Counted from the stretch's first letter, positions 16,433-61,058 are shown. The stretch: DNA of 64,000 bases from a virus (IMGVR_UViG_3300042196_000418), one strand, 5' to 3'. Made by a program: numbers and translations. Notes: a model not told the origin generated them from the letters alone.

Positions 16433-16510
16433 GGGTACCTTGATACCCAGGTGTCCTTGCGCGGACTTGCCTGCTTCACTGGGCTTTCCCAGCCCGGCAC
16501 GCTGCGTGTA
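16433..16510 (+). promoter_or_regulatory. GGGTA-N6-TACCC palindrome plus sigma54-like box
   Basis: Palindrome 16433-16448; cGGCACGctgcgtGTa at 16495-16510, 14 nt before ATG 16523 (GT in place of GC). Confidence 0.65.
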
Positions 16511-16522
16511 CTACCAAACAGC

Positions 16523-17020
16523 ATGACGACCGTAACGATCGACACCAGCAAGAACGACGACACGAGTAACCTCATGGTCCAGATCAAGCTCCGTGATCGC
16601 GACCTCAACGCCAAAGGCAGCGGCACGGAGGAGCATCGCCTCGTCGTGCTACTCGACACCGCGCCCGAAGATCCTACCGTCATGGGCACGGGGCGAGCGA
16701 AGTGGGCACGTGACTGCGCGGAGCGCGTGACTGGCGACTGGCTGCGAATGGATTTCCGCGCGGCGAATCGCAAGTGTGGCGAGCGTGGATGGGTCCCGAT
16801 CGGCACACTCGTGATCGCGATCGACAAGTCGATTCGCGGCTACAAAAGTGAGGGACGTGCAACCTACGCGCTCGGTGTCGTCGGCGCCGATGCGGAAGGA
16901 AAGACCAAGATCACGTGGAACCTGCCCGGCAAGGACGGCCACGTTAAGGTCGAGTCCAACGGATCGGGTTGGACGCACACGATCGTGTACCAGGGTCGCC
17001 GCTACGAGGTGCGATCGTGA
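16523..17020 (+). CDS. Hypothetical protein, first gene of the + operon
   Basis: Start placed outside the transposon, just downstream of the promoter motif. Confidence 0.65.
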   Translation: MTTVTIDTSKNDDTSNLMVQIKLRDRDLNAKGSGTEEHRLVVLLDTAPEDPTVMGTGRAKWARDCAERVTGDWLRMDFRAANRKCGERGWVPIGTLVIAIDKSIRGYKSEGRATYALGVVGADAEGKTKITWNLPGKDGHVKVESNGSGWTHTIVYQGRRYEVRS

Positions 17021-17647
17021 ACGCCCGCGACATCGAGAAGCAGATCCTGAACCTCATCGAGTCCTCGTTCGAGGACACCCGCGTCCCCGACGCGATCGCC
17101 GCGCACGCCGACAAGCGCACAGGCAAGTTGGTCACCAAGACCGACGCGGAGCAGCTCGAAGCACAGCTCGGAGTCCCCGTGCGCATCCTGCGCCGGTACG
17201 GCATGACGCAGGTCGCGAAAACGGGTATCGAGATCCAAGCAGTGACCTCTCCGATCAACGCAGCAATCGACGCGGCAACCGGAGCCAGCACAAGTACCGC
17301 CACACGATTCATCGAATGGGCCACGCGCGAGCACTGGGGCATCGAGCACGCGCCCGTGGCGTACCAAAAGGCGCTCACCGCCAAGGAAGCACAGATCTGA
17401 TGGGCACAAAATCGACGCGCAAGTACCCGCGGTGGATCGTCCTCTACTACATCCACACCCCCGGTTCGACGTGGCTCGGAAAGGGCGTGGAGTTTTTCGA
17501 CGACGAAGCGCCTGCGCGTGAGCGTGGTCGCGTAACAAACGGCACCAGCCGCCCGTTCTATCCGCCCTGGGATCGCCAGTACCTGGGCGCCGCACAGGGG
17601 CACGCCAACCCTGTAGCCTTGACGGCCTACCTTCAGGAGTACCGGCC

Positions 17648-18094
17648 GTGACGTGCGGTCGCTGCCGCGAGAGCGGCCACAACCGGACGACGTGCCCCAA
17701 GTCAGAGCATCTGCCGCAAGCGCCGCCCGCCGAGCTGCTGCGGGTGCTGATCGATCCGATGCATGCGCTCACGCTCGTCACGGAAGGCAAGACAGCTGAG
17801 GCGCTTGCGAATGCCACGCGTCAAATCGGAGAACTCAACCGCGACGGGCTCGGGCACCTGGCGTGCAGCGACATCTTGATCGCGCTCGCCGAGTTGGAGC
17901 TGCGCTCCAGGCAGATTCCTGCGGCAATCGAAAACGTCCGATCAACACGCATGTCCGTCGAATCCGCCAAAGCAGCGCTCGCCGCCGCCAGGCACGAACA
18001 TGCGCGGTCCGAAGCCGAGATCCTCATCGCGCTCGGGTACCACGAGAAGGCCGAAGCATTGGGCTTCCCCCTCCTGCACGAACGAACCTCCTGA
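17648..18094 (+). CDS. CCHC zinc-knuckle protein
   Basis: CGRCRESGHNRTTC. Confidence 0.55.
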   Translation: MTCGRCRESGHNRTTCPKSEHLPQAPPAELLRVLIDPMHALTLVTEGKTAEALANATRQIGELNRDGLGHLACSDILIALAELELRSRQIPAAIENVRSTRMSVESAKAALAAARHEHARSEAEILIALGYHEKAEALGFPLLHERTS

Positions 18095-18383
18095 TGGCGA
18101 GGGCGGAAAAGCACGTCCTGACCGAGACGGACTACTGCGCCACGATGTTCGAGCATCCGAAAGTCAACGGGCGCTACCGGTGCACGGCCGCTGGGCGTTA
18201 CATGGACACGGACGGGCGAGTGATCTGCGAGCGGTGCGCCGTTGATCTCGTGGTAGTTAAGCTCACCGACGTCCCGAAGCTCATCAATCTCGTCGATCGC
18301 CTCGTCGAGCTGACACCACCGATGACCAACGATCTGCGAGCACAACTGCGCACCCTGGTGAGCCGTTTGGCGAAAGTTTCGCC

Positions 18384-18953
18384 GTGATCACGCTCGTGCA
18401 TGGCGGGCAGACCGGCGTTGATCGCGGCGGCCACGAAGGCGCGATCGACAACGGCTGGCGGATCGCGGGCTACATGCCGAGCGACGCGCGTGACGAGCTC
18501 GGTGCGATCCCAGAGGCGGTCGCACGATTTCTCGTGCCGCACGACAAGGCGCGCTACTCCGCGCGCACCGAGGCAAATGTAGCCTCGGTCAACGCTGCAC
18601 TGATCGTCGTGCGCGACGCGAACGCCCCGCGGGAGACGCCAGGCACTGCCATGACGATCGACCTGGCTGCCCAGCGGCAGCTGCCCCGCAAGATCGCCGA
18701 TCCGAGTACCGATGCGACGCAGATCGCCCTCTGGATTTGGAACGATCTGCTCAGGCCAAGCACGCTGATGCTGCCGCTCGACGGATTCCAGCCCGATCCA
18801 GTGACCACACGGCTGCTAATCGCCGGCCCACGCGAGAGTAAATGGCGTGGCGCGCAAGCCGATACAGCGGAACTCCTGCGCCAGATCGCCCTCGCGATCA
18901 CCGAGATCCGCACCCCCATCCCAGATCAAGATCTGTCCCTCCAGCAGCGATAA
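18384..18953 (+). CDS. SLOG-superfamily (YpsA-like / putative molybdenum carrier) protein
   Basis: GGQTGVDRGG, RTEANV and IAGPRES. Confidence 0.8.
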   Translation: MITLVHGGQTGVDRGGHEGAIDNGWRIAGYMPSDARDELGAIPEAVARFLVPHDKARYSARTEANVASVNAALIVVRDANAPRETPGTAMTIDLAAQRQLPRKIADPSTDATQIALWIWNDLLRPSTLMLPLDGFQPDPVTTRLLIAGPRESKWRGAQADTAELLRQIALAITEIRTPIPDQDLSLQQR

Positions 18954-19851
18954 TATCCGACCAGACATGCAGAAAAAGGGTCCCAAGTCCATTCCGAGCC
19001 AGGTCCAGCTGCCTGGTGGCATCACGCTCAAGGGCGTGCCGTTCAAGATCGTCGAGTACAACCCGGATGGCACACCAAAGCTGTTCGAGCTGCTGCCGCT
19101 CGGCGCTGCGTTCGACATCACGGAGAACGATACGTGCGTGCTGTTCGCACGGGAAACGGTCATGCGAAAGCCGTGGCAGAACGGGAAGCCGCCGAAGGAA
19201 AGCTGACCCGAACGTATCGGCCACCGCAGCAAGAAAAGTTGCGCGCTACGTGGAGCTGGGAGAGCGTTGAACCGTGACCGATTCCAAGAACATCACTGAA
19301 GCGACGACCCTCGCCGAGTTGCGCGAGCAATGCCTCCTCCTCGAAGTCATCTCACTCCGGCTCTATCCATCCATGAACGGCGAGGGACGCACAGCGGGCG
19401 TGCATCACGCGACGGGGATCTATGTGGACACAGGGCCGACCGAGGCGACGGCGATCGAGGCAGCCTTTGTCAAGCTCCGACACGCGCTTCTGTCCGAGCC
19501 ACTCAAGCAGTACCTTGAAGAGATCGAAGACAAGGAGTCGCGATGAAGCATCGTTTCATTCCCCTCGCCACGATCAAGCGCTACGAGACGCTCGCGCGCA
19601 AACGCAAGGTCTCCGAAGTCGCGCGAGGGCCCGGAGGCTTTCTGCCCGCATACAAGCGCGCAGGATCTGCGGCGGCGCTTCCCGACTACTGGCGGAGCAA
19701 GCGCGAAGCCTTCATCGCCCGGCACATGGCGCAGGTCGAGGAGCGTAACGAGCCTTTGTGGGATTTGGACGGGCATCCCTCTCGTCGTCACCTGGCGCTC
19801 ATTATGTGGGCCTACTCGCCCGCAGCAAGTCGTCTATAGAAGGACCTCGTC

Positions 19852-20361
19852 ATGACGCGCAAGAAGACAGGTGCCCAGCTCGATCGAGATGTCGCGAAGG
19901 CCCTCAAGAAGCCTGCGTTGACGGTCAAGCGCGCCGACGAGGTCATCCGCGCAGCGCAGCTGGAGGGCTTCAGCGGCCGATGCGGCCGTGTCGCGATCGC
20001 GATCAACAGCATCTTGTTTGACAACAAGGGGCGCTACGTCGTCGCCACGAACCCCGCGATCAACAAACACCGCGGGCAGCTGTTCATGGGTCACGTCGTC
20101 GTCGAGTGGAAGAAACGGCTGTTCGACGCAACGGGTGTCATCAACGACGAGGACACGATCGAGTCTTGGGGAATGGTCGACCACACCGATCCAGACTACG
20201 ACTACCTCACCGAGGACGAAGCCAACGACGGTCAACTTCACTACATCGACGACCTGTTCCGAAGTCGCGCAGAGCAAGAGAAGGCCATCGAGGTTGGAAC
20301 GCGGGGACAGTGCCCGCTGCGCGATGTGGAGAAAGCCCTCCGCGAGGCCATGGAGTCATGA
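19852..20361 (+). CDS. Papain/transglutaminase-like protein with N-terminal AQLD motif
   Basis: KKTGAQLDRDVAKAL; possible Cys-His-Asp triad GRCG...GHVVV...FDATG. Confidence 0.55.
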   Translation: MTRKKTGAQLDRDVAKALKKPALTVKRADEVIRAAQLEGFSGRCGRVAIAINSILFDNKGRYVVATNPAINKHRGQLFMGHVVVEWKKRLFDATGVINDEDTIESWGMVDHTDPDYDYLTEDEANDGQLHYIDDLFRSRAEQEKAIEVGTRGQCPLRDVEKALREAMES

Positions 20362-20861
20362 TGCGCAAGAAGATCAGCGAAGAGGACGCAGTGAAGATCG
20401 CCGAGCTGCGTGCTACCTATGAAGAGACCCGGCGCACCGCAGCAGTCGAACCTACTGCGGCAACACGGGCCGCCGCGAAGGAGGCATGGGCAGCGCTGGA
20501 CGCCGCGAGCCCCCGCACGGCGACGAAGACGAGCTTTGCAAGCCGCGCCGGCAAGAGACAGGACGCGCAAGGGATCCGCGCTTATCGACAGGGCCGATCG
20601 CACGCGACGAAGAAGACCCCAGCCCAGCTCAATCGCGAAATCGCCGCCGCGCTCGCGTCCGAGGACGAGGGCGTCTTCTACCTCACCGACACCAGGGAGC
20701 AGCCGCTGGAACTCGAGTTCTCATCCCGCCCCGCGGCAAAGCGCGCGGCAATGAAACTCGTACGCGAAGGCGTGCACCCCAGGGTTGAAATCTGGCACCG
20801 ATGGCACGGCGGTCGCTACATGCAGGGCCTCGCAGACGAGGACGGCTGGTCCGATGTCTAA
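20358..20861 (+). CDS. Hypothetical protein with internal AQLNREI motif
   Basis: HATKKTPAQLNREIAAAL (motif at 20610-20654). Confidence 0.7.
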   Translation: MMRKKISEEDAVKIAELRATYEETRRTAAVEPTAATRAAAKEAWAALDAASPRTATKTSFASRAGKRQDAQGIRAYRQGRSHATKKTPAQLNREIAAALASEDEGVFYLTDTREQPLELEFSSRPAAKRAAMKLVREGVHPRVEIWHRWHGGRYMQGLADEDGWSDV

Positions 20862-21882
20862 GTTACGCTACGCAAAGTTCACGCTGACCGACGGCACGCG
20901 TTTCATCCTGCGCGTCACCAGCGAGTCGCCCACCATCGTCCGAGGCTACGAGGTCAATGCCGACGGCGACGAGGTCGTTCCGCCCGGCGCCTGCAACCGG
21001 TTGCGCATCGTCGGGCGCGACTTCATCAAGAAGACCGTCGAAATGCGCATGAACAACAAGTACGCGACGCTTGAGGTCGTACCGCACGAGGCGGGCGCCA
21101 TCGCGAAGCTTGTGAACATCGTCACCGACACCGCGACGCTCGCCGAAGCGCTGTACCCAGGCAGCGGCCTTCCGACAATGAACACCGGCGTCTACGAGGG
21201 CACACGGACTCCGATCAGAAAGCTCACCGGCCGTGAGGTCGTCACGGTAGCCGGCACGACCGCGGGCGCGAAGGTCCTGTCCGACGAGACCTGGATCATC
21301 GACCGCTTCGGACCGCTCGGCGCGAGGCAGATCAAGAAGCTGCGCGAGCTCACGAAGGAAGCATTATGAGCAGAAAACTGAACTACGGCGACTTCTCGCG
21401 GACCGGCTACCAGGACTGCGCCAACGTGTTCGACACGAACAACCACAACGACGCCTGGCACCGCCTCGGCAAGCCGCGTGGGACCGGCGTCGCCATCAAG
21501 GTCGTGCGTGAGGCGTGGGGAAACGACGAGGACCAGTACGAGCAATGGCTTTCTCAGGCCGACGTCGACGAGATTCTCAAAGACGGCCTCGAACTGCGGT
21601 CCGCATATCGGGCGTGGCGTGACGCCTGGCAGGGCTGCGCGGAGAGCGCCGTGAAAGCCGACCTGAAGGAGTGGATCGCGCAAGAAGACGAAGAAGACCG
21701 ATGAAGTCCAAGGCCGATCCGCACAAGCTCATGATCGAAGGCAAAGGGCCCTCGACAATGGGCCGCTGTGCGTGCGGCACCGTCTTTCTGTCGGGTCTCG
21801 GCCGCGGCACCGAACGGCAGCAAGTCCGCGACCAGCATACCAGGCACCTCACGAACGTTGCGTGGATGGAGTCGTTGCCAAA

Positions 21883-36865: not shown

Positions 36866-38074
36866 TCACTCGGGCCTTTTTCCGATCACCTCGACCTCGT
36901 CGAAGTCTAGTTCACGGTTGATGAGATACACGGGATCCTCGTAGTCACCCTTGTAGTCGAGGATCGAGACGATCGTGCACGCACGCACGCGGAGGAAGTC
37001 GTTGACCTCCTCCTGAGTGAAGCAGTCGCGTTGACCCTTGATCGCCTCCGCGAGCGTCTTGCGGCGCTTCTCGTAGGCCGCGTGATCGGCAACGTAGATG
37101 CCGCGAGCGTCCTTCGGCGTCACCTTGACGAGCTGGTTCTCGCACGATCCACGCGAGTGGCCTGGAACGCGCCAGCCCTCGGCGCCGATCACGCCACACC
37201 AGAGGAACCCGTCATAGGCCACCTCGGGAAGATCAGGTCCGCTCTTGATGTAGGTCGGCGCCAGCCGCTGACCCGAGCCGTCCATGCCGTAGCGATCGGC
37301 CAACTGCAACTCGTCCAGACACTTCTTCCCCAGCTCGATGCGCCGCGCGTCGCGTGGCTCGCCGTATGCGAAGAAAGGTCCGATCCCCGACGGAAACGGG
37401 ATCGGAGCCGGCTCTGCGCATACATCGGGAATTACTTCCACGAGAGGAAACTCTTCGATGTATGCGAGGACACCCTGAAGGTGCGTGCGTACTTCGTTCA
37501 TAACCTCCGCCGTGTCGTAGGACTTGGGTTCGTCGCCCTCAGGGCCGTACTCGCGTCCGTCCTGGTCCCACTCCAAACTGCTGGCCCGCTGCCCACGATA
37601 AGAACGCTGCCCCGAGTATTTGACGCACACGCGCGGTTCGTTGTTGAGCCGCGCGTTGGGACGCGTCCACCAGGTAGCGCGATCTCCTTCCCAGTTATCG
37701 CCGACGTAGACGTAGAAGGTGGGTCCCGAGTCGTCCTCGTACACGGTCAGCGATCGCGTACCGAAGCGAACGTCGTGGACCGCCGCCGTATCGTTCCACC
37801 GCCCTCCGGCTAGCTGACCTTGCGGACGTCCAAAGTGGATCATGATGTCGTGATGGCCAAGATCGATGGCGTTCTGGTCGCTCGTAACGCTCTCGACGTA
37901 TCGGAGCTTCTGGGCCCCGCTGCCGTAGTCGTAGAAGACGACGGACAAACCAGGGACCTTCCAGTCGCGTGCATGGAGGGCACGGACGATCTGCTCGGAC
38001 ACCTCGTCAAACGGGAACTGACGGCTCTTGGGGTAGAGAAACTGCATCGAGAGTAGGGCTCCTGGTTGATTCAC
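36866..38074 (-). CDS. Hypothetical protein (402 aa), operon head
   Basis: Long clean ORF downstream of the palindrome/sigma54-like promoter. Confidence 0.75.
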   Translation of the reverse strand: MNQPGALLSMQFLYPKSRQFPFDEVSEQIVRALHARDWKVPGLSVVFYDYGSGAQKLRYVESVTSDQNAIDLGHHDIMIHFGRPQGQLAGGRWNDTAAVHDVRFGTRSLTVYEDDSGPTFYVYVGDNWEGDRATWWTRPNARLNNEPRVCVKYSGQRSYRGQRASSLEWDQDGREYGPEGDEPKSYDTAEVMNEVRTHLQGVLAYIEEFPLVEVIPDVCAEPAPIPFPSGIGPFFAYGEPRDARRIELGKKCLDELQLADRYGMDGSGQRLAPTYIKSGPDLPEVAYDGFLWCGVIGAEGWRVPGHSRGSCENQLVKVTPKDARGIYVADHAAYEKRRKTLAEAIKGQRDCFTQEEVNDFLRVRACTIVSILDYKGDYEDPVYLINRELDFDEVEVIGKRPE

Positions 38075-38087: not shown

Positions 38088-38209
38088 TGCGCTCCGCGTG
38101 CCGAGACCGGCACGTGCAACACCGCGATCATAGTGCCTGGGTGTCGCAGTACCTGGCTCGGAACGAACACGCTGGCCGTGACGCTCGAGAGACGGGTATG
38201 CAGGTACCC
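38088..38209 (-). promoter_or_regulatory. Sigma54-like box plus palindrome pair
   Basis: cGGCACGcggagcGCa (38103-38088); palindromes at 38139-38154 and 38194-38209, 55 bp apart. Confidence 0.7.
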
Positions 38210-41688: not shown

Positions 41689-42297
41689 TCAGGAGAGCCC
41701 CTTCCCATTAGAACCACCGTGAATCGCGCACCCTGCGTCACGACAGCCGCCTGCCTCGGACAGGATCGCGCTCGCGAGCTTACTGGCCAGTGCGGCGCTC
41801 TCGTCGGAGACGTAGGACAGCTCGTGGTAGCCGCTCACCGAGTAGCCGATGAGCTGCGCGAGCTGCTCCTCATCTTCCTGCGGGAAGTCTTGCGTACCGG
41901 TCCAGTTCAGACCGCCGTCGGAACGCGCTGGGAAGTCGGGATACACCCTGCCGCGTTCGGTATCACGATCGAGGAGTGCGTCCACGATCGTGTTCTTGCG
42001 GAAGCGGATGGTACCGCGTGCGTCCACGTGGACGGGCTGCATGGGATGCGGATCATAGCCCTTCAGTTTCTTCCCGCCGCCGAGCAGCGGAAGCGTGGGC
42101 CGCGTGACGCGGAGACCGAGAAGCTGTGCGAACTGCATGTGATCTTCGGGCGGAGCGTCGAACTTCACGATCTGACCAAGAGCGCCGCCATCGCGGTCGA
42201 ACAAGGCTCGAACGATCGCGTTCGCGCGGAAGCGAACCACGCCGTGCTCGTCTTGGATGACAGGCTGCATGGGATGGGATGGCAGCTCTTTCTTCAC
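41689..42297 (-). CDS. Hypothetical protein with duplicated HPMQPV domain
   Basis: HPMQPV...RFR.N.IV.AL.DRD...AQL.G occurs twice. Confidence 0.7.
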   Translation of the reverse strand: MKKELPSHPMQPVIQDEHGVVRFRANAIVRALFDRDGGALGQIVKFDAPPEDHMQFAQLLGLRVTRPTLPLLGGGKKLKGYDPHPMQPVHVDARGTIRFRKNTIVDALLDRDTERGRVYPDFPARSDGGLNWTGTQDFPQEDEEQLAQLIGYSVSGYHELSYVSDESAALASKLASAILSEAGGCRDAGCAIHGGSNGKGLS

Positions 42298-42707
42298 GAG
42301 GATTTTCTCCCCCAGCGCTTGAGGCGCTTGGGGCGCGGCGCCATCTTGACGAGTCCGTGCCGCTGGAGCAGCCGACGAAAGTTCGAACGATCGACACCGG
42401 CCAAGAGCGCAGCATCCACCGCCGATCCCTTCGCGGACTCCATCGCGCGCACGAGATAGTTGCGCTCGAACGCGGTCGTTGCCAAGCGCTTCGCTTCGGT
42501 GAGCGGCATCAAGGTCCAGTCGACGATCAGTTCGAGCTGACGTGCATCAACCGCGATCGGCAGGCTCCAGTGCTGCTGTGCACCGCGCCAGCGGCAAATT
42601 CGAAGTTGCCCGGAGCTCTTGGAGGTGCCGACCACGATCGCAGCACCCTTGGAAGAGGTGCGCATACGATCGTAGACGATCTGGCCGATCAAAAGGCTGG
42701 TCTTCAC
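42294..42707 (-). CDS. Fis-type HTH protein lacking an AAA+ domain
   Basis: FERNYLVRAMESAKGSAVDAALLAGVDRSNFRRLLQRHGL. Confidence 0.75.
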   Translation of the reverse strand: MKTSLLIGQIVYDRMRTSSKGAAIVVGTSKSSGQLRICRWRGAQQHWSLPIAVDARQLELIVDWTLMPLTEAKRLATTAFERNYLVRAMESAKGSAVDAALLAGVDRSNFRRLLQRHGLVKMAPRPKRLKRWGRKSS

Positions 42708-43525
42708 GCTGCATCCTCCGTTGCTGGCAGCGCGAGCGGCAGGTCGGGCAAGACCTCAGGCGCATGCTCGGCCAGGAACACACGCCACGATCCTGGCTTC
42801 TTTTCTCCGCCACGCGTGCCCTTGACGCCACAGCCCCACAGTCCCTGGATCTTGGTCAGGCGTGGCCGGGCACGATCCTCCATCGCGACTGCACGGCGTG
42901 CGAGATCTGGGTGCTTCTTCGCGAGCTGGATGAGTTCAGCGGGCTTGAGCGACGGACAAAACCAGCAGCTCGACTTCGGTGGCACTGGCAGGCCCGCGGC
43001 GGCGATCTCCTTCATGCACCGATCACGATCCCAGCCCCACTCACGCAGGGGATAGATCCAGTTCCACGGCCCCTTGGTCTCGACGCCACCACGGCGCGAG
43101 TCGCATGGGCCCGCGTCGTAGCCGATCGCGCGACGGACCTTGCCGCCGGCCTTGATGTGCGCAGCGAAGTAGTCGGCGCAGGCGGCGTCGAGCGGCTCGC
43201 CCTTCCACTTGAGCGAGCACTTCTTGTAGCCGAACGCGAGCGACGGCAGCGTTTGGTTCACGAGGCAATTCTCCTCAAGCGTCGCGTAGTGCCCGTGCTT
43301 GGGCCGCTGCACGACGTACTGCACGTCGGTGATCGTCGGGAAGCCCACCTCGGCGAGCCACTTGTCGATGATCGGACGGTACGCGTAGGTCTCGGGCCAC
43401 TCGTTGCCGACCTGTGCGTGGCCGATCCAATGCGGTCGGATGCCGAGACGCCACCAGCCGACGAGCACTGCGGTCGAATCGACGCCCATGCCGTACGAGA
43501 GAGCCAGTAGATTGCCTGCGCTCAT
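42704..43525 (-). CDS. PAPS-reductase-like PP-loop protein 1
   Basis: SYGMGVDS, CSLKWK, YPLREWGWDR and PPKSSCWFCP. Confidence 0.8.
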   Translation of the reverse strand: MSAGNLLALSYGMGVDSTAVLVGWWRLGIRPHWIGHAQVGNEWPETYAYRPIIDKWLAEVGFPTITDVQYVVQRPKHGHYATLEENCLVNQTLPSLAFGYKKCSLKWKGEPLDAACADYFAAHIKAGGKVRRAIGYDAGPCDSRRGGVETKGPWNWIYPLREWGWDRDRCMKEIAAAGLPVPPKSSCWFCPSLKPAELIQLAKKHPDLARRAVAMEDRARPRLTKIQGLWGCGVKGTRGGEKKPGSWRVFLAEHAPEVLPDLPLALPATEDAA

Positions 43526-47576: not shown

Positions 47577-47999
47577 TCACGACGCGACCTCAGAGGTGAG
47601 CGGGATCTCCTTGGTGGGCCAGGCGCCCGGCTCCCACGCGCGACCGTTGTAGCTGATCTTGGCGATCACCTTGGCGCCCTGCTTGACCTCGCCGCCGAGC
47701 CAGTTGCCGCCGCCCAGCTCGTAGTGCTCGATGTACGCGCGGCATGCCTTGCTAGCGTCGGCAAGCGAGGCCACGCGGAGGGTCCGTCGCGGCACGCCAG
47801 GCATCGAGCGACGGCTGTCCTGCCCGAAGTCCGGGTTGCCGACGCTCGCGAGCAGGACCTTGTAGGCACCCTTGGGCGCGACCAGCGCGGCGATCGTGCG
47901 CGTATACGCAGCCTCGTGCTCGCACACCACGCAGGAGGTTGCACCGTACAGCGGAAGGCCGCAGGTGCCACAGGGCGTCTCGGTAGCGTCGAGGTTCAT
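47577..47999 (-). CDS. Hypothetical phage-type protein, operon head
   Basis: GNPDFGQ...GGGNW...ISYNGRAW; ATG 14 nt after the sigma54-like box. Confidence 0.65.
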   Translation of the reverse strand: MNLDATETPCGTCGLPLYGATSCVVCEHEAAYTRTIAALVAPKGAYKVLLASVGNPDFGQDSRRSMPGVPRRTLRVASLADASKACRAYIEHYELGGGNWLGGEVKQGAKVIAKISYNGRAWEPGAWPTKEIPLTSEVAS

Positions 48000-48011: not shown

Positions 48012-48135
48012 AGCAGATCGCGTGCCCAGTCCACGGTCATCGTAAGTGTGCGACCGCGAACGCTGGGTACTTTGTAACCCGGTTCCGCGCTGCGTCGCGA
48101 TCCGTAACGCTCGAGACACGGGTAATTTTCTACCC
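48012..48135 (-). promoter_or_regulatory. Sigma54-like box plus palindrome pair
   Basis: gGGCACGcgatctGCt (48027-48012); palindromes at 48065-48080 and 48120-48135, 55 bp apart. Confidence 0.75.
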
Positions 48136-51324: not shown

Positions 51325-51657
51325 TCACGACACGAACCCACGGTTGAAGCGCGAAAACGTCTCTTCGTCGCGCGCTCGATCGATCTCATCCCAGAGCGCA
51401 CGTTCGTTCAACTCGCGAAGCGCTACGAGTTCACGGTAATCCTCGACCGCCTGCCATTCATGCGCGTCCGCCGCATGCTCGTCCGCCGCCATGCTGATCG
51501 TGTCGCGAATGACATTCCAGTCGCGCGCATCATCGAGTCCGCACGCGATTGCGTCACGCGTGTCGCGAAGCGCAAGAGCCTTCAACCTACGAGCCCGCTG
51601 TGCGCGTCCAGTGCGCATGATGGCGCGGAGTAGTTTCATGTGCCGCGTGATCCGCAT
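51325..51657 (-). CDS. Hypothetical protein, operon head
   Basis: ATG 14 nt after TGGCGCGgcggTTGCT. Confidence 0.6.
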   Translation of the reverse strand: MRITRHMKLLRAIMRTGRAQRARRLKALALRDTRDAIACGLDDARDWNVIRDTISMAADEHAADAHEWQAVEDYRELVALRELNERALWDEIDRARDEETFSRFNRGFVS

Positions 51658-51669
51658 GTCCTATCCAGG

Positions 51670-51891
51670 AGCAACCGCCGCGCCATCCTGACAGCAATGT
51701 GGCTGCACGCCAAGTCCCTGGTCCAAGCCAGCGGGTACTTGTAGACCCAGGGTCTAATATTCACAGATCCCGAAGCGCTCGAGACACGGGTAGCCAGCCA
51801 CTCAGGCACGGGCAATCGCGAGCTTGACGTACCGGGCGAGACCTACGGCGTCTCTTCATAGGACGTGTCAGGTCGTGGAATGCAGGGTGCA
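51670..51891. promoter_or_regulatory. Divergent control region: two sigma54-like boxes and a palindrome pair
   Basis: TGGCGCGGCGGTTGCT (-, 51685-51670); TGGAATGCAGGGTGCA (+, 51876-51891); palindromes at 51733-51748 and 51788-51803 (second degenerate). Confidence 0.75.
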
Positions 51892-51904: not shown

Positions 51905-52282
51905 ATGGCGAACATGGGAACGAAGAAGGCGGCGAACGGCACGATCCTCGGAACCTACCGCGTGTGCGGTCGCTGCAAGGGTACGGGGTGGTGGTCGGGT
52001 CAGGTTCTGCGCGGGTGCTTCGCGTGCGGCGGGCAAACCATGCGCATCGGCTCGGGCCGCGTGTTCGTCGAGAGCGCGGCCGGCAAAATTGCCCGCATGG
52101 AATCTCACGCCGCGCAGGTCCGCGCCGACATCGCGGAACACATGGCGCGCCTAGAGAAGCTCGGACCCAACGCCCCTCGCTGGAAGCGTATGTCACCCGA
52201 AGCGTGGCTGGCTCGCGACCGCGATAACCTCGCACGCATCGAAGGCGAAATCGCAAGCACTCGCAAGGAAGCGGGCCTGTGA
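51905..52282 (+). CDS. Zinc-finger protein (CGRCKGTG...CFACGG)
   Basis: Cys motifs; start 15 nt after the sigma54-like box. Confidence 0.6.
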   Translation: MANMGTKKAANGTILGTYRVCGRCKGTGWWSGQVLRGCFACGGQTMRIGSGRVFVESAAGKIARMESHAAQVRADIAEHMARLEKLGPNAPRWKRMSPEAWLARDRDNLARIEGEIASTRKEAGL

Positions 52283-54632: not shown

Positions 54633-54648
54633 GTACCGAGTACCAAGG

Positions 54649-55873: not shown

Positions 55874-56203
55874 CTAGAACGCCTTCAGCTTCCACTTCTT
55901 CGGCGAGACCTGCTTGAGCGCGTCCTCGACGCTCGAGTGCTGCGAATCTCGGACGGGCCCCAGCTCGTCGAAGAAGCTGACCTGCCACTTACCGATGGAC
56001 TTGGTCGAGGGGTGGACGATCGCCGACTCGTCGCGCCTCATTCTCGACGAAAATTCGGCGCCCCGCAGCGGACCCACGACCTTCCAGTCACAGCTCTTGA
56101 TCCCAAACGCGAGCGTGCGACAGACCACGCGCAGCGGAGACTTGTGCCGTGCCAGGGCCTCTGCGATCTCACGATCAAGCTGGGCGGACTTGTTCACCGA
56201 CAT
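55874..56203 (-). CDS. Hypothetical protein with N-terminal AQLDREI motif
   Basis: MSVNKSAQLDREIAEAL. Confidence 0.7.
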   Translation of the reverse strand: MSVNKSAQLDREIAEALARHKSPLRVVCRTLAFGIKSCDWKVVGPLRGAEFSSRMRRDESAIVHPSTKSIGKWQVSFFDELGPVRDSQHSSVEDALKQVSPKKWKLKAF

Positions 56204-56385
56204 GGGCCTCCGTGGTCTTGGGGTTCCGCGTTCCGCGCGTTCGAGTCTACTGCGTGGAACTGCAAAGCCCCAATTTCGAGCGAGCGATCGCCACAAGTGA
56301 GGCAGCCTTCGCGAAACAGCTCTCGTGCTACGATCAAAGGAGGCGTCGAAGCCGCGGCCTCCGCGCAACGCGCAACACCTAAAGT

Positions 56386-56898
56386 CTATTCCTCGATCGT
56401 CGCGCCAGCACGCTCGGCCGCCGCGCGGCCCGCCTTCGTGAAGGGGCCGACCACGACCAGCTCGGGCGAGACCTCGGACCGGTACGCGTCGAACAAGACC
56501 TGCGCGAGCCCGCGTCCGCGCGCATCGGAATCGACCCAGAAGTGATGCACGTAGGGCCGGTCGAGTTCGACGGAATACGCGAGACCGGCCAACGGATCCT
56601 CGACGCCGCCCTTGGGCAAAACGATCAAAATGCGGCCAGAGCGCCCGCCGCCATACATTTTACCGACGGTGAAGATCAGATCCCAAGCACTCGGAATGCC
56701 TGCGAGCGTGACCTCGATCGGCTCGCGCCGTGTGATGCGCTCGCCCATGAGCGCCTCATGCACGCGCTCGCGCGTGATCCGCTCCATGCCGCCGTTGCCG
56801 TCAGGCCGCTTCGCCAGCGTCTCCTCGATCTCGCGCTCGAGTTGCTTGGCGGGCGTCTTCTTCTTCGCGGGAGCCGCCTTCTTCGGCGTGCGCGGCAC
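56386..56898 (-). CDS. GNAT acetyltransferase-like protein with N-terminal KQLEREI motif
   Basis: FWVDSDARGRGLAQVLF (motif A); GAGGAG upstream of the GTG. Confidence 0.75.
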   Translation of the reverse strand: MPRTPKKAAPAKKKTPAKQLEREIEETLAKRPDGNGGMERITRERVHEALMGERITRREPIEVTLAGIPSAWDLIFTVGKMYGGGRSGRILIVLPKGGVEDPLAGLAYSVELDRPYVHHFWVDSDARGRGLAQVLFDAYRSEVSPELVVVGPFTKAGRAAAERAGATIEE

Positions 56899-56900
56899 GG

Positions 56901-57410
56901 CTACTCCTCGCTCTGCGCGCTCGCAATTTCCGCCTGCAACGCACTCTCCAGTGCAGCCTTCTCGCTTGCGGAGAGCTTCTTCCACGCCGCACGCACCATG
57001 TCGTCGGGAGTCATCCACTCGAAGGCCCCAACCATCTGCGTGAGAGCCGCAGAGCGATTCATGCGCGGGTTCGCGAGCACCTGCTTGGCCATGAGCATCG
57101 AGCCGTAACCGTAGTTACCAGCGAGCAACCAGCCGACGCGCTCTGCCACCAAATTGGGGTCTTCGCTCATCGCCTTGTAGAACTCCGCCTGTGCCTCCTT
57201 CCGATCGGAGAGCGGTGCCCGACGAAGCCCGTCGAGATGCTTGCGCGCATCTGCAAGCTCGCGACGCTCGTACTCCGCCTGACTCGGAACGCCGGAGGCT
57301 TTGGCCTTCGCGCCCGTCGCCGCTCCCTGCTTCTTTTCGCGCATGCGCAGGACCTCGTCGATCTCACGATCGAGCTGCGCGCCACGCGTCTTCGTACCGT
57401 TGTTCGCCAT
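56901..57410 (-). CDS. Hypothetical protein with N-terminal AQLDREI motif
   Basis: KTRGAQLDREIDEVL. Confidence 0.75.
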   Translation of the reverse strand: MANNGTKTRGAQLDREIDEVLRMREKKQGAATGAKAKASGVPSQAEYERRELADARKHLDGLRRAPLSDRKEAQAEFYKAMSEDPNLVAERVGWLLAGNYGYGSMLMAKQVLANPRMNRSAALTQMVGAFEWMTPDDMVRAAWKKLSASEKAALESALQAEIASAQSEE

Positions 57411-57435
57411 CAGCCTATGCTCCCTTTCGTTCGAA

Positions 57436-57936
57436 TCAATCGTCGGTGTTCATGGCGTCATCGACAGACAAAAAGCCCCGACGAACGGATTCCGCGACGT
57501 CCTCGTCACGCCCTTTGGACATTCCGGTGCGGCGGACGTTGTCAGCAAACTTCCGCAGCTCTTCGTCGCGGAGCGACTCCCCGATCTCACGATCAAGCTC
57601 GGCAGCACTCTTCGCAGAGGGCTTGCAGGCGCCCGGCACATACTGCTGGCGTGAGCGACATCGCGAACGATGCCCGAGCTTGCCGGCATCAACTCCGTGC
57701 TTGGTCAGCTTACTGAGCCAGTTCGCTGCTCCACATTCTTTGCATTCGATCCAGGTGTCACCGTCTGGCGCAGGTTCGATCAACAGCTGATCGACCGGGT
57801 TCCCAGCCTCATGACCGACACACTCCGCATGTACTGCGGGCTTCCCTTTTTCATAGGCGATCGCTCTGCCAGGCTTGATCCTTTGGGAGCACGCTGGACA
57901 GGTCGACTCGAACTTTGCCGTGATGATTTTGGGCAT
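57436..57936 (-). CDS. Zinc-finger protein with internal AELDREI motif
   Basis: CPAC...HAEC, CKEC...H...C and KSAAELDREIGESL. Confidence 0.7.
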   Translation of the reverse strand: MPKIITAKFESTCPACSQRIKPGRAIAYEKGKPAVHAECVGHEAGNPVDQLLIEPAPDGDTWIECKECGAANWLSKLTKHGVDAGKLGHRSRCRSRQQYVPGACKPSAKSAAELDREIGESLRDEELRKFADNVRRTGMSKGRDEDVAESVRRGFLSVDDAMNTDD

Positions 57937-58215
57937 CTTTGCCGGTGTGCTCTCGTCCCCCGAGTCTCGCTCAAATCCCGCAGAGCTGGAAGATTTCGTC
58001 CTGCACCTTGCGCTGCTCGTCAGAGGTCCAGTCGCGCCAGTCCATCAGCTTGTGCCCGTAGCCCTGAGGGTAGCGACGTCGAAAACCGCTTTCCCAGCAC
58101 ACCTCATACTGCCGCGGTCCCTCGCGTGTCACGACACCGATCCGTAGGCGAATCATGCTAGCGCCCTCGTTGACCAGCTCCTGTACGTATTGCCCGCGCG
58201 TCCGCTTCGTATCCG

Positions 58216-58770
58216 TCATAGCAACGACAGTTGCTCCACGATCTCTGCGGCCCTCTCTGCCGGACGAAGCGCCATCCACAGCACGCCCAGCGTATTCGTA
58301 CCGTGCCACGTCCCATCCGCCTGCCGCGCAGCGCCCCAGAACAAACCAGATTCGTTCGCCCTCGCAGTACAGTCCTCCACGATACGGCGGTTTCCCGTCG
58401 CGCGCAGGGCCTCCAATAACAGCGGATGCTGTTCCAGCTTCAGGCCCAAGATCACGCGCATGTTGGAGATGTCCTGCTCGGAGCGCGGCTGCACGATCAT
58501 CTCGCGTGCATGCTCTTTCGCGATCCTCTTCACCATCATGGGACTCGTCGCAGCCATGATCAGCTTCCTGACCTCGGAGGTGTCAGGGAAACGCTGCGCT
58601 TGGAACGCATGTTCCGCGGTGCGCCAGAGCCCCACCGGATGCGGCGACATGTTGCCGAGCCATCCGTAGGGCTCACGTACCTTTCTGATCACGATGTCGT
58701 CGGTCACGAAACGGGCGCCAGCTCCGAAAGCGGAAAGATCCACGGGCCGCGCCCGATCCGTTTGGTACAT
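58216..58770 (-). CDS. NADAR (YbiA-like) family protein
   Basis: LGNMS, TAEHAFQAQRF, KLEQHP, TGNRRIVE, FWG and GTNTLG. Confidence 0.9.
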   Translation of the reverse strand: MYQTDRARPVDLSAFGAGARFVTDDIVIRKVREPYGWLGNMSPHPVGLWRTAEHAFQAQRFPDTSEVRKLIMAATSPMMVKRIAKEHAREMIVQPRSEQDISNMRVILGLKLEQHPLLLEALRATGNRRIVEDCTARANESGLFWGAARQADGTWHGTNTLGVLWMALRPAERAAEIVEQLSLL

Positions 58771-59507
58771 TCCATGCCTATCCAGTTAGCGCCCGCTGTG
58801 CGCCTTTTCAATGACTGCGTACCCAAGTGCCTGGAGCAGCCTAGGCATCTGCGTGCCAGTTGGCACTTCGATCGTCTTGTAAATGCTGTCAGTAGACGAC
58901 GGAAGCGCGATTCTTCGTCGTGCATCCTTAACGCAATCACCGTCCCATTCAAGCGTGACGCCGACTCGTCGTCCCGCTGCGGTAATCAATGTCGCCAGAG
59001 TGAAGGAACTTTGGTTACTCATTGTAGGCGTCCGTGCCGACGATCCGCTCGATCGCCGCCACCGCACCGTCCGGAAGCATCACGATGTCGCCCGGCCGTA
59101 ACGGATCGTGCTCCTCGCGCGGAGCGAACGTCCTTGGTGTCGCCGCCACGGGTTTCTTCTTCGAGCATGCTTTTCGGGTCACGAGCCCTCTCCACTGCCG
59201 GCCAGCTCCAGCTCCGCATGCACGTACCGCGTCAGCTCGCGCTCGATCGTACCATCCGAGAGGATGGTCGCCGCAAGATCGCCGGTCTTGACGGCGAGTC
59301 GCTCCTGGATCACCGCGCACGCGGCGTCGACGGCACGTTCGACCAGCGCCTCGATCGCGACCTTGCACGTCTGAATCGCGTGCTGTCCGACGTGCCCATG
59401 ATCGCCGCGGAACGAGCGGAGAGCGTTGGACCACGTCGCACTGTCGATGAGGCCGCGGGTATAGAGCACCTGGATCTGGGACTGAGTGAGCGGGGCAGCT
59501 TCCTTCG

Positions 59508-60851
59508 TCACGACACGACCTCCTTCGACAAGATCTTCGACGTCTTCATCTTCTGCGCCTTGCGCGCGGTCTTCTTCGCGAGCGCCTCAGCCTTCGCCGC
59601 ATTCATGGCCATCAGCTCCGCGTAACGGGCGATGATCGAGGCGGCATCGGTGTATTTCACTTCGAGCCCCAGCAACGCCGCGACTGCGAGACGAACCTTG
59701 GCCAACAGATCCGCCTCGTCCGCCGTGGGCATGACCGTCGGCCAGCCCTCGGTATAAAGCAAGTGCTTCGGGATGCGAGCCTCGATCTGCTCACGTGCAC
59801 GAGCACGCTGCTTAGCGGCGGCGATCGCAGCCGCCGTCTCCTCGTCGAGCAACTGCGGGGCAATGTCAGCGAGCCACGACGAGCCCTGGAACGCGAAGGT
59901 CGACGCGATCTCCAGCGCGACCATCGTGCGGAACACCGGTACGTTGTCCTCGCACGTCGTAGACGCGACCAGGTCCGAACGCTGCGCCATAATGCAGTAC
60001 CGACACGAGATCCGACTCATGCCGTAAACCGTGTAGCCCTCGTGGAGATCGAAGCCGCGCGCTGCGCAGAACGCATAGACATCGCGATCGGTCCACTCGG
60101 CGATCGGGTTCCAGTCGAGGCCCGTGGTGCAGGAGCCCTTGTGCTCAAGGCGCTTGTTGCGCTGCGCCGTCTTGGCGCCGCTACGCTGGCGACTCTCCGC
60201 GCGGCGGATGCCAGCGGCCGAAATGATCGTCTGACCAGGAAACCGCTTGACGAGCGCGGCGGCGATCGGCGCACTCTTGAGTTCTGACGTGCAGAACCGC
60301 ATCGAGGGCGTCGACCAGGGGAGGATGACCTTGACGCATTCGAGATTCGCGTAACGGCGACGGTTGTTCGACCAGCGGCCCTGCCAGCGCTTCATCATGC
60401 CGCCGGCTGCACGACGCACGACAATCAGCTCGACGCCGAGCCGGTCTGCGAGGCGCTGACACGTCGGCAGCGAGTCGGTCCATTCGACGCTCAGCTCCGG
60501 GCGCTCGTCGCCGAGGTCGGCGTGTACGAGGATGCGCGGACCGGTGTGGCCGATCGTGTCCAGGTACTCGATCGTCGCAAGGGCGGCGGCGCAGGAATCC
60601 TTGCCGCCGGACACACCGATCGCGACCGGAGCGTTCGCGGCCAGCGCCGCGGCCAAATCGGAGATCGCCGCGATCTCGACCTTGGCCTCCTTGCACTTGG
60701 CAGCTGACGTCGATCGCGCCGCGATCAATGCTTCGAGCTTCGCGATCCGCTCCGAGAGCGACTCGACACCGCGGTCGATGCGACCGGGGAGCCCGAGCGA
60801 AACAAGCTTCTGACCTGGGCTGCATGCCGACATTTGAACCTTCGACATCAT
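59508..60851 (-). CDS. PAPS-reductase-family protein 3 (phage type)
   Basis: VSGGKDS, CTSELK, GIRRAESRQR, PIAEW and RISCRYCI. Confidence 0.9.
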   Translation of the reverse strand: MMSKVQMSACSPGQKLVSLGLPGRIDRGVESLSERIAKLEALIAARSTSAAKCKEAKVEIAAISDLAAALAANAPVAIGVSGGKDSCAAALATIEYLDTIGHTGPRILVHADLGDERPELSVEWTDSLPTCQRLADRLGVELIVVRRAAGGMMKRWQGRWSNNRRRYANLECVKVILPWSTPSMRFCTSELKSAPIAAALVKRFPGQTIISAAGIRRAESRQRSGAKTAQRNKRLEHKGSCTTGLDWNPIAEWTDRDVYAFCAARGFDLHEGYTVYGMSRISCRYCIMAQRSDLVASTTCEDNVPVFRTMVALEIASTFAFQGSSWLADIAPQLLDEETAAAIAAAKQRARAREQIEARIPKHLLYTEGWPTVMPTADEADLLAKVRLAVAALLGLEVKYTDAASIIARYAELMAMNAAKAEALAKKTARKAQKMKTSKILSKEVVS

Positions 60852-60863
60852 GTCCCTCAACTA

Positions 60864-61058
60864 TCCACGCGCGGTGCCAGCGTGAGTACGAGCCTAAGCC
60901 ACTGATCTGACACCGAGGTAGCGCCGCACCCACCCGAGCTCGTGGCGAGCCGGATTCTGGGTAGCTCTCTACCCGTGTCTTGAGCACGCCAATCAGCACT
61001 GCGGCCAAACGGCTTGACGCGAGCTTAGCTTCGGATCACGTCCGGCACGCCGCGAGCA
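60864..61058. promoter_or_regulatory. Divergent control region: sigma54-like boxes and palindromes
   Basis: TGGCACCgcgcgtGGa (-, 60879-60864); cGGCACGccgcgaGCa (+, 61043-61058); palindromes at 60959-60974 and degenerate 60916-60931. Confidence 0.7.

What the first reader, a model, noticed from the sequence alone, without database searches (positions are those of the whole stretch)
16495..61058. Seven sigma54-like -24/-12 boxes placed 14-15 nt before start codons (near-leaderless sigma54 transcripts)
Boxes: 16495(+) cGGCACGctgcgtGT; 38103(-) cGGCACGcggagcGC; 48027(-) gGGCACGcgatctGC; 51685(-) tGGCGCGgcggttGC; 51876(+) tGGAATGcagggtGC; 60879(-) tGGCACCgcgcgtGG; 61043(+) cGGCACGccgcgaGC. In each case the start codon follows the -12 dinucleotide by 14-15 nt, so the predicted TSS is within a few nt of the start codon. 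Palindrome centres lie about 45-47, 56-57, 78, 89, 100-102 or 112 bp upstream of -24, mostly in ~11-bp steps. Established: sigma54 needs an activator bound to upstream sites. Inference: the element's operons are run by sigma54 plus an enhancer-binding protein, an unusual programme for a phage-like element. Two boxes have a non-consensus -12.
Basis: partly seen in the sequence, partly recalled or inferred. Interest (0 to 1): 0.8.

Follow-up and report, generated by a model that had tools for sequence, protein, structure and literature searches.

The report
Sigma-54-type promoters abutting start codons

Summary
Sigma-54-like boxes are not enriched across the window as a whole (248 found, 249 expected). 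These seven are not chance, because each has an ATG or GTG 27-28 nt after the first G of the GG, in frame with a long ORF. They match the published consensus yTGGCACGrnnnTTGCw at 9-12 of 14 positions (combined p about 3e-13). Three of them are among the five best hits in 128,000 positions. Each lies downstream of GGGT-N8-ACCC palindromes (9 found, 0.3 expected) phased at about 11 bp, and none has a sigma-70-type promoter. Two relatives of gene B were called with over-long N-termini, which lets their upstream DNA be read as protein. In both, the box is the only invariant island between the palindrome and the ATG, and the spacing is the same.

The near-leaderless reading holds well for B, C, D and G, which have no Shine-Dalgarno site although internal genes mostly do. 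It is doubtful for A, E and F.

Untested here: host identity, presence of RpoN, the activator, and real transcription start sites. No rpoN or AAA+ activator gene lies in the window.

This scan already reported the same cassette elsewhere on this genome and on other elements. Verdict: real, probably sigma-54-type, and a new variant of a known kind.

The parts
16495..16509 (+). Box G (-24/-12 type; -12 is GT). ATG at 16523, 27 nt after the first G. Heads the + strand gene train 16.5-33.3 kb.
   Evidence: rank 88 of 127,968; 10 of 14 consensus positions. No SD and no alternative start with an SD.
38089..38103 (-). Box A. GTG at 38074 (offset 28). The conserved protein start MQFLYPK is the ATG at 38047, with AGGAG 11 nt upstream.
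   Evidence: rank 39; N-termini of homologues
48013..48027 (-). Box B. ATG at 47999 (offset 27). No SD. The start is conserved in relatives.
   Evidence: (rank 4)
51671..51685 (-). Box C, the best match to the consensus (12 of 14). ATG at 51657 (offset 27). No SD.
   Evidence: (rank 2)
51876..51890 (+). Box D (TGGAAT type), divergent partner of C. ATG at 51905 (offset 28). No SD.
   Evidence: rank 5; two further copies of this cassette type keep the ATG at offset 27
60865..60879 (-). Box E (-12 is GG). ATG at 60851 (offset 27). First gene is PAPS-reductase-like.
   Evidence: (rank 223)
61043..61057 (+). Box F, divergent partner of E. ATG at 61071 (offset 27), but AGGAG lies 8 nt before that ATG.
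   Evidence: (rank 26)
38139..38209 (-). Cassette A enhancer: palindromes 38194-38209 and 38139-38154, exactly 55 bp apart, plus the third box (a GTGTCTCGAGCG-type motif) at 38182-38198.
48065..48135 (-). Cassette B enhancer: palindromes 48120-48135 and 48065-48080, 55 bp apart, plus the third box at 48108-48124.
51733..51803 (.). Shared C/D enhancer: palindrome 51733-51748, a one-mismatch palindrome at 51788-51803, and the third box at 51776-51792.
60916..60986 (.). Shared E/F enhancer: palindrome 60959-60974, a degenerate palindrome at 60916-60931 (43 bp away), and the third box at 60970-60986.
16433..16448 (+). Promoter-proximal palindrome of cassette G. The likely distal partner at 10574-10589 now lies 5.8 kb away, across an inserted transposon.
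42294..42707 (-). Small protein with an NtrC/Fis-type HTH and no AAA+ domain, inside the operon headed by cassette B. It is a candidate binder of the palindromes.
   Evidence: HTH_8 at 18.4 bits, below the cut-off of 22; 55% identical over 55 aa to the HTH_8 domain of the protein at 14428-15306
14428..15306 (-). Second AAA-less HTH_8 protein, which also carries an IclR-type winged helix. It is cargo of the transposon.
   Evidence: HTH_8 at 32.6 bits, above the cut-off

Best explanation
The seven boxes are the core promoters of seven transcription units that together cover 16.5-64 kb of the window. They are of the sigma-54 (-24 GG / -12 GC) type.

Proposed mechanism (inferred). Host RNA polymerase carrying sigma-54 would sit on the box as a closed complex. 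An AAA+ enhancer-binding activator, not yet identified, would bind the phased 16-bp GGGT-N8-ACCC palindromes 45-135 bp upstream and open the complex. The GTGTCTCGAGCG box next to the distal palindrome probably takes part too.

The -12 element lies 13-14 nt before the start codon, so initiation would fall on the AUG or within about 4 nt before it. For cassettes B, C, D and G, and probably E, the first gene would then be translated from a leaderless or near-leaderless mRNA. Later genes in each operon use ordinary Shine-Dalgarno sites. Cassette A more likely gives a leader of about 30 nt with an SD.

Shown by sequence: the motif, its spacing, its position at operon heads, its conservation in two relatives, and the lack of SD. 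Inferred: sigma-54 dependence, the activator, and the transcription start site.
For: 1. Match to the consensus yTGGCACGrnnnTTGCw (as quoted in PMC12754779): 9-12 of 14 positions, Fisher p = 2.6e-13. With an approximate weight matrix, the boxes rank 2, 4, 5, 26, 39, 88 and 223 among 127,968 positions.
2. Column conservation across the seven boxes: GG 7/7, G at -13 7/7, W at -11 7/7, C at -12 5/7, and CAC(G) at 6/7 for each of its four positions.
3. Fixed register: a start codon at offset 27/28 in 7 of 7, in frame with the ORF. The offset profile spikes only there. GGCAC is the only register-conserved 5-mer.
4. Two further cassette copies seen in sequencing contigs also keep GG-N10-GC-W and an ATG at offset 27 (loose ends at 51891 in run X2 and at 51880 in run X5).
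5. Palindromes are 30-fold over chance. Their spacing is exactly 55 bp in A, B and C, and their phasing is about 11 bp.
6. No sigma-70-type promoter is found in the cassettes and no Rfam RNA family matches.
7. Every divergent strand switch between 16 and 64 kb carries a cassette, and the convergent switches carry none.
8. Footprint in relatives. Two homologues of gene B were called with over-long N-termini that read through their cassettes (P0244 and P0393). Aligned to the window's conceptual translation, the seven codons spelling the box (GTRSALP) are invariant. Six of the 8 codons before them and both codons after them differ. The arms of both palindromes and the third box are kept, and there is no indel between the proximal palindrome and the ATG.
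9. Leaderless part. Cassettes B, C, D and G have no SD, whereas 71 of 95 gene starts in my rough gene model do. B, D, F and G have no usable alternative start. Three of the four closest representatives of gene B begin at the same Met. The databases call the same starts for B and E.
10. Geometry. In C. jejuni dRNA-seq the sigma-54 motif ends 8-13 nt before the TSS (PMC3847290). Here that range runs from 4 nt before the ATG to its first base.
11. The element encodes two NtrC/Fis-type HTH_8 proteins. A myxobacterial activator is known to bind 5-N6-5 palindromes of the same geometry (PexR, PMC12754779).
Against: 1. The host is unknown, so the presence of RpoN is unverified. Labels on related contigs conflict: one says Myxococcota (P0148) and one says Gaiellaceae, an actinobacterial family (P0055). 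From general knowledge, Actinobacteria lack sigma-54 and have many leaderless genes.
2. No rpoN and no AAA+ activator hallmark (GAFTGA, the activator-type Walker A, the RpoN box) is found in any frame of the window.
3. Two boxes lack GC at -12. Across the window, such boxes are at chance level, and the best-scoring hit of all, at 20802, is an intragenic chance match.
4. Cassette F has a canonical AGGAG 8 nt before its ATG, inside the spacer that would not be transcribed.
5. In A the conserved protein begins 9 codons downstream, behind an AGGAG. In E relatives begin about 5 codons downstream.
6. The same palindrome stands about 70 bp upstream of the predicted start of a sigma-70-like promoter (TTGCAC-17-TAAAAA) that has an SD-led gene, at 6968-7071.
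7. If initiation were exactly on the A of the ATG, the C of the -12 GC would lie 14-15 nt upstream instead of the canonical 12.
8. The footprint in relatives was read through protein translations, so third codon positions are unseen.
Confidence: 0.65

Rival explanations
1. The box is a real promoter element but is read by something other than sigma-54. Candidates are an RNA polymerase or sigma-like factor encoded elsewhere on the ~240-290 kb element, or a host sigma-70-family enzyme using a '-10 next to the ORF' leaderless promoter. In the second case GGCAC would be the site of an accessory protein.
For: The host is unknown, and one related contig is labelled Gaiellaceae. A TA dinucleotide lies 10-12 nt before the start codon in A, B, D, E and G, where leaderless sigma-A promoters carry TANNNT (the theme of PMC12340547). 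No rpoN or activator gene is in the window. Huge phages often carry their own transcription machinery (general knowledge).
Against: The T at the sixth position of a -10 hexamer is present only in D, and C and F have no TA there at all. The invariant columns are exactly those of sigma-54 (GG, N10, G, C, W), at 14-27 nt before the ATG, where sigma-70 enzymes read nothing. No sigma or RNA polymerase domain was found in about 50 window proteins scanned. The HTH_8 domains point to a lineage that has enhancer-binding proteins.
Confidence: 0.13
2. The boxes are sigma-54 promoters, but the transcripts are not leaderless. On this view translation starts at downstream or SD-led codons, or an upstream start site supplies a leader, and the ATG at +27 is only a by-product of a duplicated cassette module.
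For: Gene A's conserved N-terminus begins 9 codons downstream, behind an AGGAG. Relatives of E begin about 5 codons downstream. F has a proper SD. The cassettes are clearly a copied module: a paralogous copy aligns from the palindrome to position -11. No paper linking sigma-54 promoters to leaderless mRNAs was found.
Against: The copied module ends at -11. The spacer down to the ATG differs between copies, yet its length is kept at 27-28 nt in 9 of 9 copies. All seven ATG/GTG codons are in frame. B, D and G have no other possible start before conserved Cys motifs. B's Met is conserved in relatives. B, C, D and G have no SD, although internal genes mostly do.
Confidence: 0.12
3. The box is an operator or recombination site for a DNA-binding protein, such as a repressor covering the start of each operon. 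On this view it is not a promoter element, and the resemblance to the -24/-12 consensus is a coincidence.
For: The element encodes HTH proteins of unknown target. Conservation alone cannot tell a promoter from an operator.
Against: The box is asymmetric, not a dyad. No other promoter is detectable in the cassettes, although each one heads an operon. A chance match of 9-12 of 14 positions at seven fixed places has p about 3e-13.
Confidence: 0.05
4. The boxes are chance matches, picked by eye in G+C-rich DNA.
For: Window-wide counts are at chance. GGCACG occurs 125 times. Three other box-plus-ATG hits at offsets 27/28 lie inside genes with no palindromes upstream, and look like chance.
Against: See the positional statistics, the association with palindromes found independently of the boxes, and the conservation in relatives.
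Confidence: 0.02

Closest known systems
Classical enhancer-dependent sigma-54 promoters (glnAp2/NtrC, nifH/NifA; in myxobacteria katB/PexR with tandem CACCG-n6-CGGTG sites, PMC12754779)
   Same: A -24 GG and -12 GC separated by 10 nt. An extended match to yTGGCACGrnnnTTGCw. No -35/-10. Two or more 16-bp interrupted palindromes 70-160 bp upstream of the predicted start, on one face of the helix.
   Different: They sit on a huge phage-like element and head essentially all of its operons in this region. The start codon follows the -12 element by only 13-14 nt. A third conserved box flanks the distal palindrome. The activator and sigma-54 itself are unidentified.
Leaderless mRNAs from sigma-70/sigma-A promoters (lambda cI from PRM; Actinobacteria; Deinococcus-Thermus '-10 next to the ORF', PMC12340547; S. 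meliloti, 171 leaderless TSS, all AUG, PMC3616915)
   Same: An AUG without an SD at the predicted 5' end. ATG in six of seven cases. Later genes in each operon use an SD.
   Different: The promoter next to the ORF is of -24/-12 type, not a -10 hexamer. I found no paper describing sigma-54-driven leaderless transcripts. That covers only the library searched.
Sigma-54-dependent transcription in Pseudomonas phage YuA (Ceyssens et al. 2008, as cited in PMC10914365, which confirmed one sigma-54-like promoter by ONT-cappable-seq)
   Same: A phage using the host's sigma-54 for part of its programme.
   Different: In YuA one such promoter was confirmed, beside sigma-70 and phage-specific ones. Here there is a repeated cassette with its own enhancer sites at seven operon heads in 48 kb, with more elsewhere on the element according to earlier notes of this scan.
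Sigma-54 cassettes reported earlier by this scan (e1-5496779 on this genome; e1-5468896, e1-5666006 and e1-5468921 on related elements)
   Same: The same GGGT-N8-ACCC palindromes, a -24/-12 box, and an ATG about 15 nt after it.
   Different: Those are unchecked AI notes. What this report adds: per-cassette tests of the start codons, a contrast in SD use between first and internal genes, a footprint read from relatives' protein translations, and the exceptions (A, E, F, and the sigma-70-like site at 6968).

Membership tests
Sigma-54 (RpoN)-dependent promoter | GG at -25/-24 and GC at -13/-12, separated by exactly 10 nt | tested here: met
   GG is present in 7 of 7 and G at -13 in 7 of 7. C at -12 is present in 5 of 7 (T in G, G in E). 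The spacing is exact in all seven.
Sigma-54 (RpoN)-dependent promoter | Extended consensus yTGGCACGrnnnTTGCw | tested here: met
   9-12 of 14 positions match. Each box is in the top 0.004-0.9% of window positions. Fisher p = 2.6e-13. W at -11 in 7 of 7.
Sigma-54 (RpoN)-dependent promoter | No sigma-70 -35/-10 elements at the same place | tested here: met
   The consensus scan found none in the five cassette regions. By eye, the candidate -10 hexamers lack the conserved T at position 6.
Sigma-54 (RpoN)-dependent promoter | Upstream activator (enhancer) sites, typically dyads more than 70 bp upstream and dependent on helical face | tested here: met
   Palindromes occur 9 times against 0.31 expected. 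Their centres lie 44.5-136.5 bp upstream of the GG, with a period of 11 bp.
Sigma-54 (RpoN)-dependent promoter | The host or the element encodes RpoN | not testable with these tools
   No whole genome is held for this window. No RpoN box is found in the window. The host is unresolved.
Sigma-54 (RpoN)-dependent promoter | A cognate AAA+ enhancer-binding protein (GAFTGA loop) | tested here: inconclusive
   None is found in the six frames of the window. Only AAA-less HTH_8 proteins are present. The rest of the element and the host could not be searched.
Sigma-54 (RpoN)-dependent promoter | Transcription starts about 12 nt after the GC and depends on rpoN | not testable with these tools
   No RNA run is listed for this DNA.
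Leaderless mRNA | The 5' end lies on the start codon or within 5 nt of it | not testable with these tools
   This is predicted from geometry alone. The motif ends 11-12 nt before the ATG, within the 8-13 nt range measured in C. jejuni (PMC3847290).
Leaderless mRNA | AUG start codon and no Shine-Dalgarno site | tested here: inconclusive
   Six of seven start with ATG. B, C, D and G have no SD. E has GAGG only 3 nt away. F has AGGAG at 8 nt. A starts with GTG.
Leaderless mRNA | The codon at the 5' end is the true N-terminus of the protein | tested here: inconclusive
   Met for B. B, D, F and G have no alternative start. Not met for A. Ambiguous for E.

The most novel reading that the evidence does not exclude
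A huge phage-like element runs most of its accessory operons through the host's sigma-54. Its promoters are placed so that RNA polymerase starts on the AUG itself. That would create a class of enhancer-dependent, leaderless first cistrons not described in the papers I could search. The element's own AAA-less NtrC-type DNA-binding proteins would compete for the enhancer palindromes and so gate the whole programme.
Probability: 0.3. Interest if true: 0.78.

Novelty: new variant of a known kind. Interest (0 to 1): 0.6.

Why it matters
Sigma-54 promoters stay silent until an ATP-driven activator fires them. An element that puts nearly all of its gene trains behind such promoters has tied its programme to one signalling protein, its own or the host's. 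That would be an unusually tight on/off switch for a virus-like element.

Pairing that switch with leaderless first cistrons would join two mechanisms that are normally studied separately. It would also give a simple, portable cassette (enhancer, box, ATG) that is easy to test in reporters.

There is a practical point for annotation. Gene callers sometimes read through these cassettes, as in P0244 and P0393. Start codons of the first genes in this family of elements should be set from the box, not from the longest ORF.

Tried and rejected
- Whole-genome search for rpoN (PF04552) and activator (PF00158) genes: no genome is held for this window.
- DNA of relatives could not be obtained:
  - megablast against phages found nothing;
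  - tblastn of gene A against phages found nothing;
  - Viral-contig searches with two proteins, an alignment and two DNA patterns found nothing related;
  - Genome contigs gave only homologues of gene A at about 40% identity, from Saccharibacteria;
- No RNA holder is listed for this DNA.
- Read laying gave only fragments. Its table of differences was cut, so it could not be used to score conservation inside box D.
- A search for full-length activators sharing the HTH of P0121 found nothing significant. PDB hits were weak: Fis at E = 0.07 and MarR at E = 0.06.
- Host identification failed. The transposase has no close plasmid hits. DnaJ gave mixed phyla.
- I considered and dropped 'C at -1 of the ATG' as a mark of the TSS. 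It is equally common at other gene starts (48 of 89).
- The top-scoring box, at 20802, is inside a gene. Three other box-plus-ATG hits (43516-, 49875-, 55358+) have no palindromes upstream.
- A possible eighth cassette at 58.78 kb matches only 6 of 14 consensus positions by my own count (sequence seen).
- The M-W-H start of P0220 hints at a TGGCAC about 41 nt before that gene's start, but its relative P0233 does not keep it. I gave it no weight.
- No tRNA genes and no Rfam families.

Full report
**What the window is.** The window has 62% G+C and holds many small genes of unknown function. Named domains include DnaJ, two PAPS-reductase-like proteins, radical SAM, NADAR, a GNAT-like domain, a phosphatase, a YgjP-like metallopeptidase, a SLOG domain and an IS5-type transposase. 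No whole genome is held for it. The window's own proteins occur on contigs of up to 288,627 bp. Homologues of its genes sit on many metagenomic contigs of 100-430 kb. It is therefore part of a large family of uncultured huge elements. Sequencing runs that hold it come from sediment.

**The observation.** Counted from the first G of the GG, a start codon begins at offset 27 (B, C, E, F, G) or 28 (A, D). Six are ATG and one is GTG. All are in frame with ORFs of 97-447 codons.

Sigma-54-like boxes are not enriched in the window as a whole. GGCACG-N6-GC occurs 9 times against 8.4 expected. The consensus with up to 3 mismatches occurs 248 times against 249 expected. GGCACG alone occurs 125 times. 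The case therefore rests on position.

- In the 60 nt before the seven start codons, the only 5-mer kept in register is GGCAC at -27/-28.
- Among all box-like hits followed by ATG/GTG and an ORF of at least 80 codons, offsets 27 and 28 hold 9 hits against about 0.6 at any other offset. The other two are intragenic, with no palindromes upstream.
- Against the published consensus yTGGCACGrnnnTTGCw (quoted in PMC12754779), the boxes match 9-12 of 14 positions. Combined p is 2.6e-13.
- With an approximate weight matrix they rank 2, 4, 5, 26, 39, 88 and 223 of 127,968 positions.
- GG, the G at -13 and a W at -11 are invariant.

**The surroundings.** GGGTA-N6-TACCC occurs 9 times against 0.31 expected. 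A second motif, GTGTCTCGAGCG, abuts the distal palindrome; together with the palindrome arm it occurs 5 times against 0.36 expected. In cassettes A, B and C the two palindromes are exactly 55 bp apart. Palindrome centres lie 44.5-136.5 bp upstream of the GG and fit an 11-bp period (R = 0.70, p about 0.002, uncorrected). Cassette D is about 4 bp off phase.

The consensus scan finds no sigma-70-type promoter in the cassettes. No Rfam family matches. Every divergent strand switch between 16 and 64 kb (16.1-16.5, 51.66-51.90 and 60.86-61.07 kb) carries a cassette. A and B head successive trains on the minus strand. The convergent switches carry none. These are therefore the operon promoters of this region.

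**Evidence from relatives.** Two indirect sources helped.

First, contigs laid on the C/D region include another copy of the D-type cassette at the element's own depth, and a copy from a different soil sample. Both continue after GG-N10-GC-W with 12 unrelated bases and then ATG, so the ATG is at offset 27.

Second, two homologues of gene B were called with over-long N-termini that read through their own cassettes (P0244, from a 189-kb contig, and P0393). I aligned these to the conceptual translation of the window's cassette B.

- The 29 codons from the proximal palindrome to the Met align without any gap.
- The seven codons that spell the box (GTRSALP, that is GGC ACG CGA TCT GCT CTA CCT) are invariant in all three sequences.
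- Six of the 8 codons before the box differ, and both codons after it differ.
- The GGGT and ACCC arms are kept while the inner 8 bases change. TGTCTCGA of the third box is also kept.

This is a phylogenetic footprint of palindromes, third box and -24/-12 box with fixed spacing. Its weakness is that it was read through translations, so third codon positions are unseen.

**Is it leaderless?** Genes inside the operons mostly have clear Shine-Dalgarno sites (GGAGG, AGGAG or AAGGAG at 5-9 nt; 71 of 95 starts in my rough gene model). The first genes behave as follows.

- B, C, D and G have no SD.
- In B, D and G the next in-frame start would delete conserved Cys motifs or also lacks an SD.
- Three of the four closest representatives of gene B begin at the same Met, nine residues before the first Cys.
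- The public gene calls for B and E use the same starts.

In C. jejuni the sigma-54 motif ends 8-13 nt before the mapped TSS (PMC3847290). Here that range runs from 4 nt before the ATG to its first base. For these cassettes a leader of 0-4 nt is therefore the straightforward reading.

Three cassettes do not fit cleanly.

- In A the start is GTG. The conserved protein (MQFLYPK in nearly all of the 17 homologues inspected) begins 9 codons further down, at an ATG preceded by AGGAG. A leader of about 30 nt is more likely there.
- In E most relatives begin about 5 codons after the window's first ATG.
- In F a canonical AGGAG lies 8 nt before the ATG, inside the spacer that a sigma-54 start would not transcribe.

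**What remains untested.** The host is unknown. The only taxon labels on related contigs conflict: Myxococcota for a protein 87% identical to E's product, and Gaiellaceae for one 66% identical to A's product. DnaJ and the transposase gave no host signal. No rpoN and no AAA+ activator hallmark occurs in the window.

The window does encode two AAA-less proteins with an NtrC/Fis-type HTH. One scores above the Pfam cut-off. The other is 55% identical to it over 55 residues. They could bind the palindromes as modulators, but they cannot activate sigma-54 on their own (established knowledge of bEBPs).

The same palindrome also stands upstream of a sigma-70-like promoter with an SD-led gene at 6968-7071. 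Its binder is therefore not necessarily dedicated to sigma-54.

**Comparison with what is known, and novelty.** The architecture is that of classical enhancer-dependent sigma-54 promoters. The M. xanthus activator PexR binds tandem 5-n6-5 palindromes of the same geometry (PMC12754779). Use of sigma-54 by a phage has a precedent in Pseudomonas phage YuA (PMC10914365, citing Ceyssens et al. 2008).

Two things differ here. The cassette is repeated at seven operon heads in 48 kb. The -24/-12 box is coupled to the start codon at a fixed 27-28 nt. Of 45 papers containing both 'leaderless' and 'sigma54' or 'sigma-54', I opened the four most promising and scanned the listed titles and abstracts; none of what I read links the two.

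This scan had already noted the same cassette on this genome (e1-5496779) and on related elements (e1-5468896, e1-5666006, e1-5468921). I treated those notes as leads only. My verdict is a new variant of a known kind: real in the sequence, probably sigma-54-type (about 0.65), and near-leaderless for most but not all cassettes.

Noticed in passing
6968-7071 (+): Two overlapping GGGT-N8-ACC(C/T) palindromes lie upstream of a sigma-70-like promoter (TTGCAC, 17 nt, TAAAAA) and an SD-led gene for a cytochrome-c-like protein. The palindrome centre is about 72 bp before the predicted start. So the palindrome is not exclusive to the -24/-12 cassettes.
   Followed up: partly
38182-38198, 48108-48124, 51776-51792, 60970-60986: A third conserved box (GTGTCTCGAGCG, containing CTCGAG) directly abuts the promoter-distal palindrome, always on its promoter-B/C/A/F side. 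It is also kept in two relatives. Its binder is unknown.
   Followed up: partly
10690-10800 and 16280-16330: Several copies of GACAGAAGTAGAAC and CTACCTCAAAA lie near both ends of the 5.8-kb insertion that separates the palindrome at 10574 from cassette G. They look like subterminal transposase-binding repeats. The insertion point is 11 nt after the palindrome, inside the position of the third box.
   Followed up: no
42294-42707 (-) and 14428-15306 (-): Two proteins share a 55-residue NtrC/Fis-type HTH (55% identity) but have no AAA+ domain. One is inside the operon headed by cassette B. The other is transposon cargo and also carries an IclR-type winged helix.
   Followed up: partly
51659-51666, 58776-58783, 60859-60866 (-): The hexamer GGATAG lies 3-9 nt before the ATG of three minus-strand genes (C, E and the NADAR gene at 58770). 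In E it supplies an in-frame TAG that closes the upstream frame. The 58.78-kb copy has no convincing -24/-12 box.
   Followed up: partly
47577-47999 (-): The product of gene B has an N-terminal CxxC...CxxC zinc ribbon. Its C-terminal domain of about 90 residues has more than 1,200 relatives among cluster representatives but no Pfam family.
   Followed up: no
Proteins P0244 and P0393 (relatives of gene B): Public gene calls for first genes of this element family sometimes run 50-58 codons upstream through the non-coding cassette. This gives Arg/Ser/Gly-rich false N-termini. Those false N-termini let the upstream DNA of relatives be read indirectly.
   Followed up: yes
42704-43525 (-) and 59508-60851 (-): Two diverged PAPS-reductase-like genes (PF01507, phrog_424) lie in different cassette-driven operons. 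The family is very large in metagenomes: 2,128 hits among the 8,000 candidates scored.
   Followed up: no
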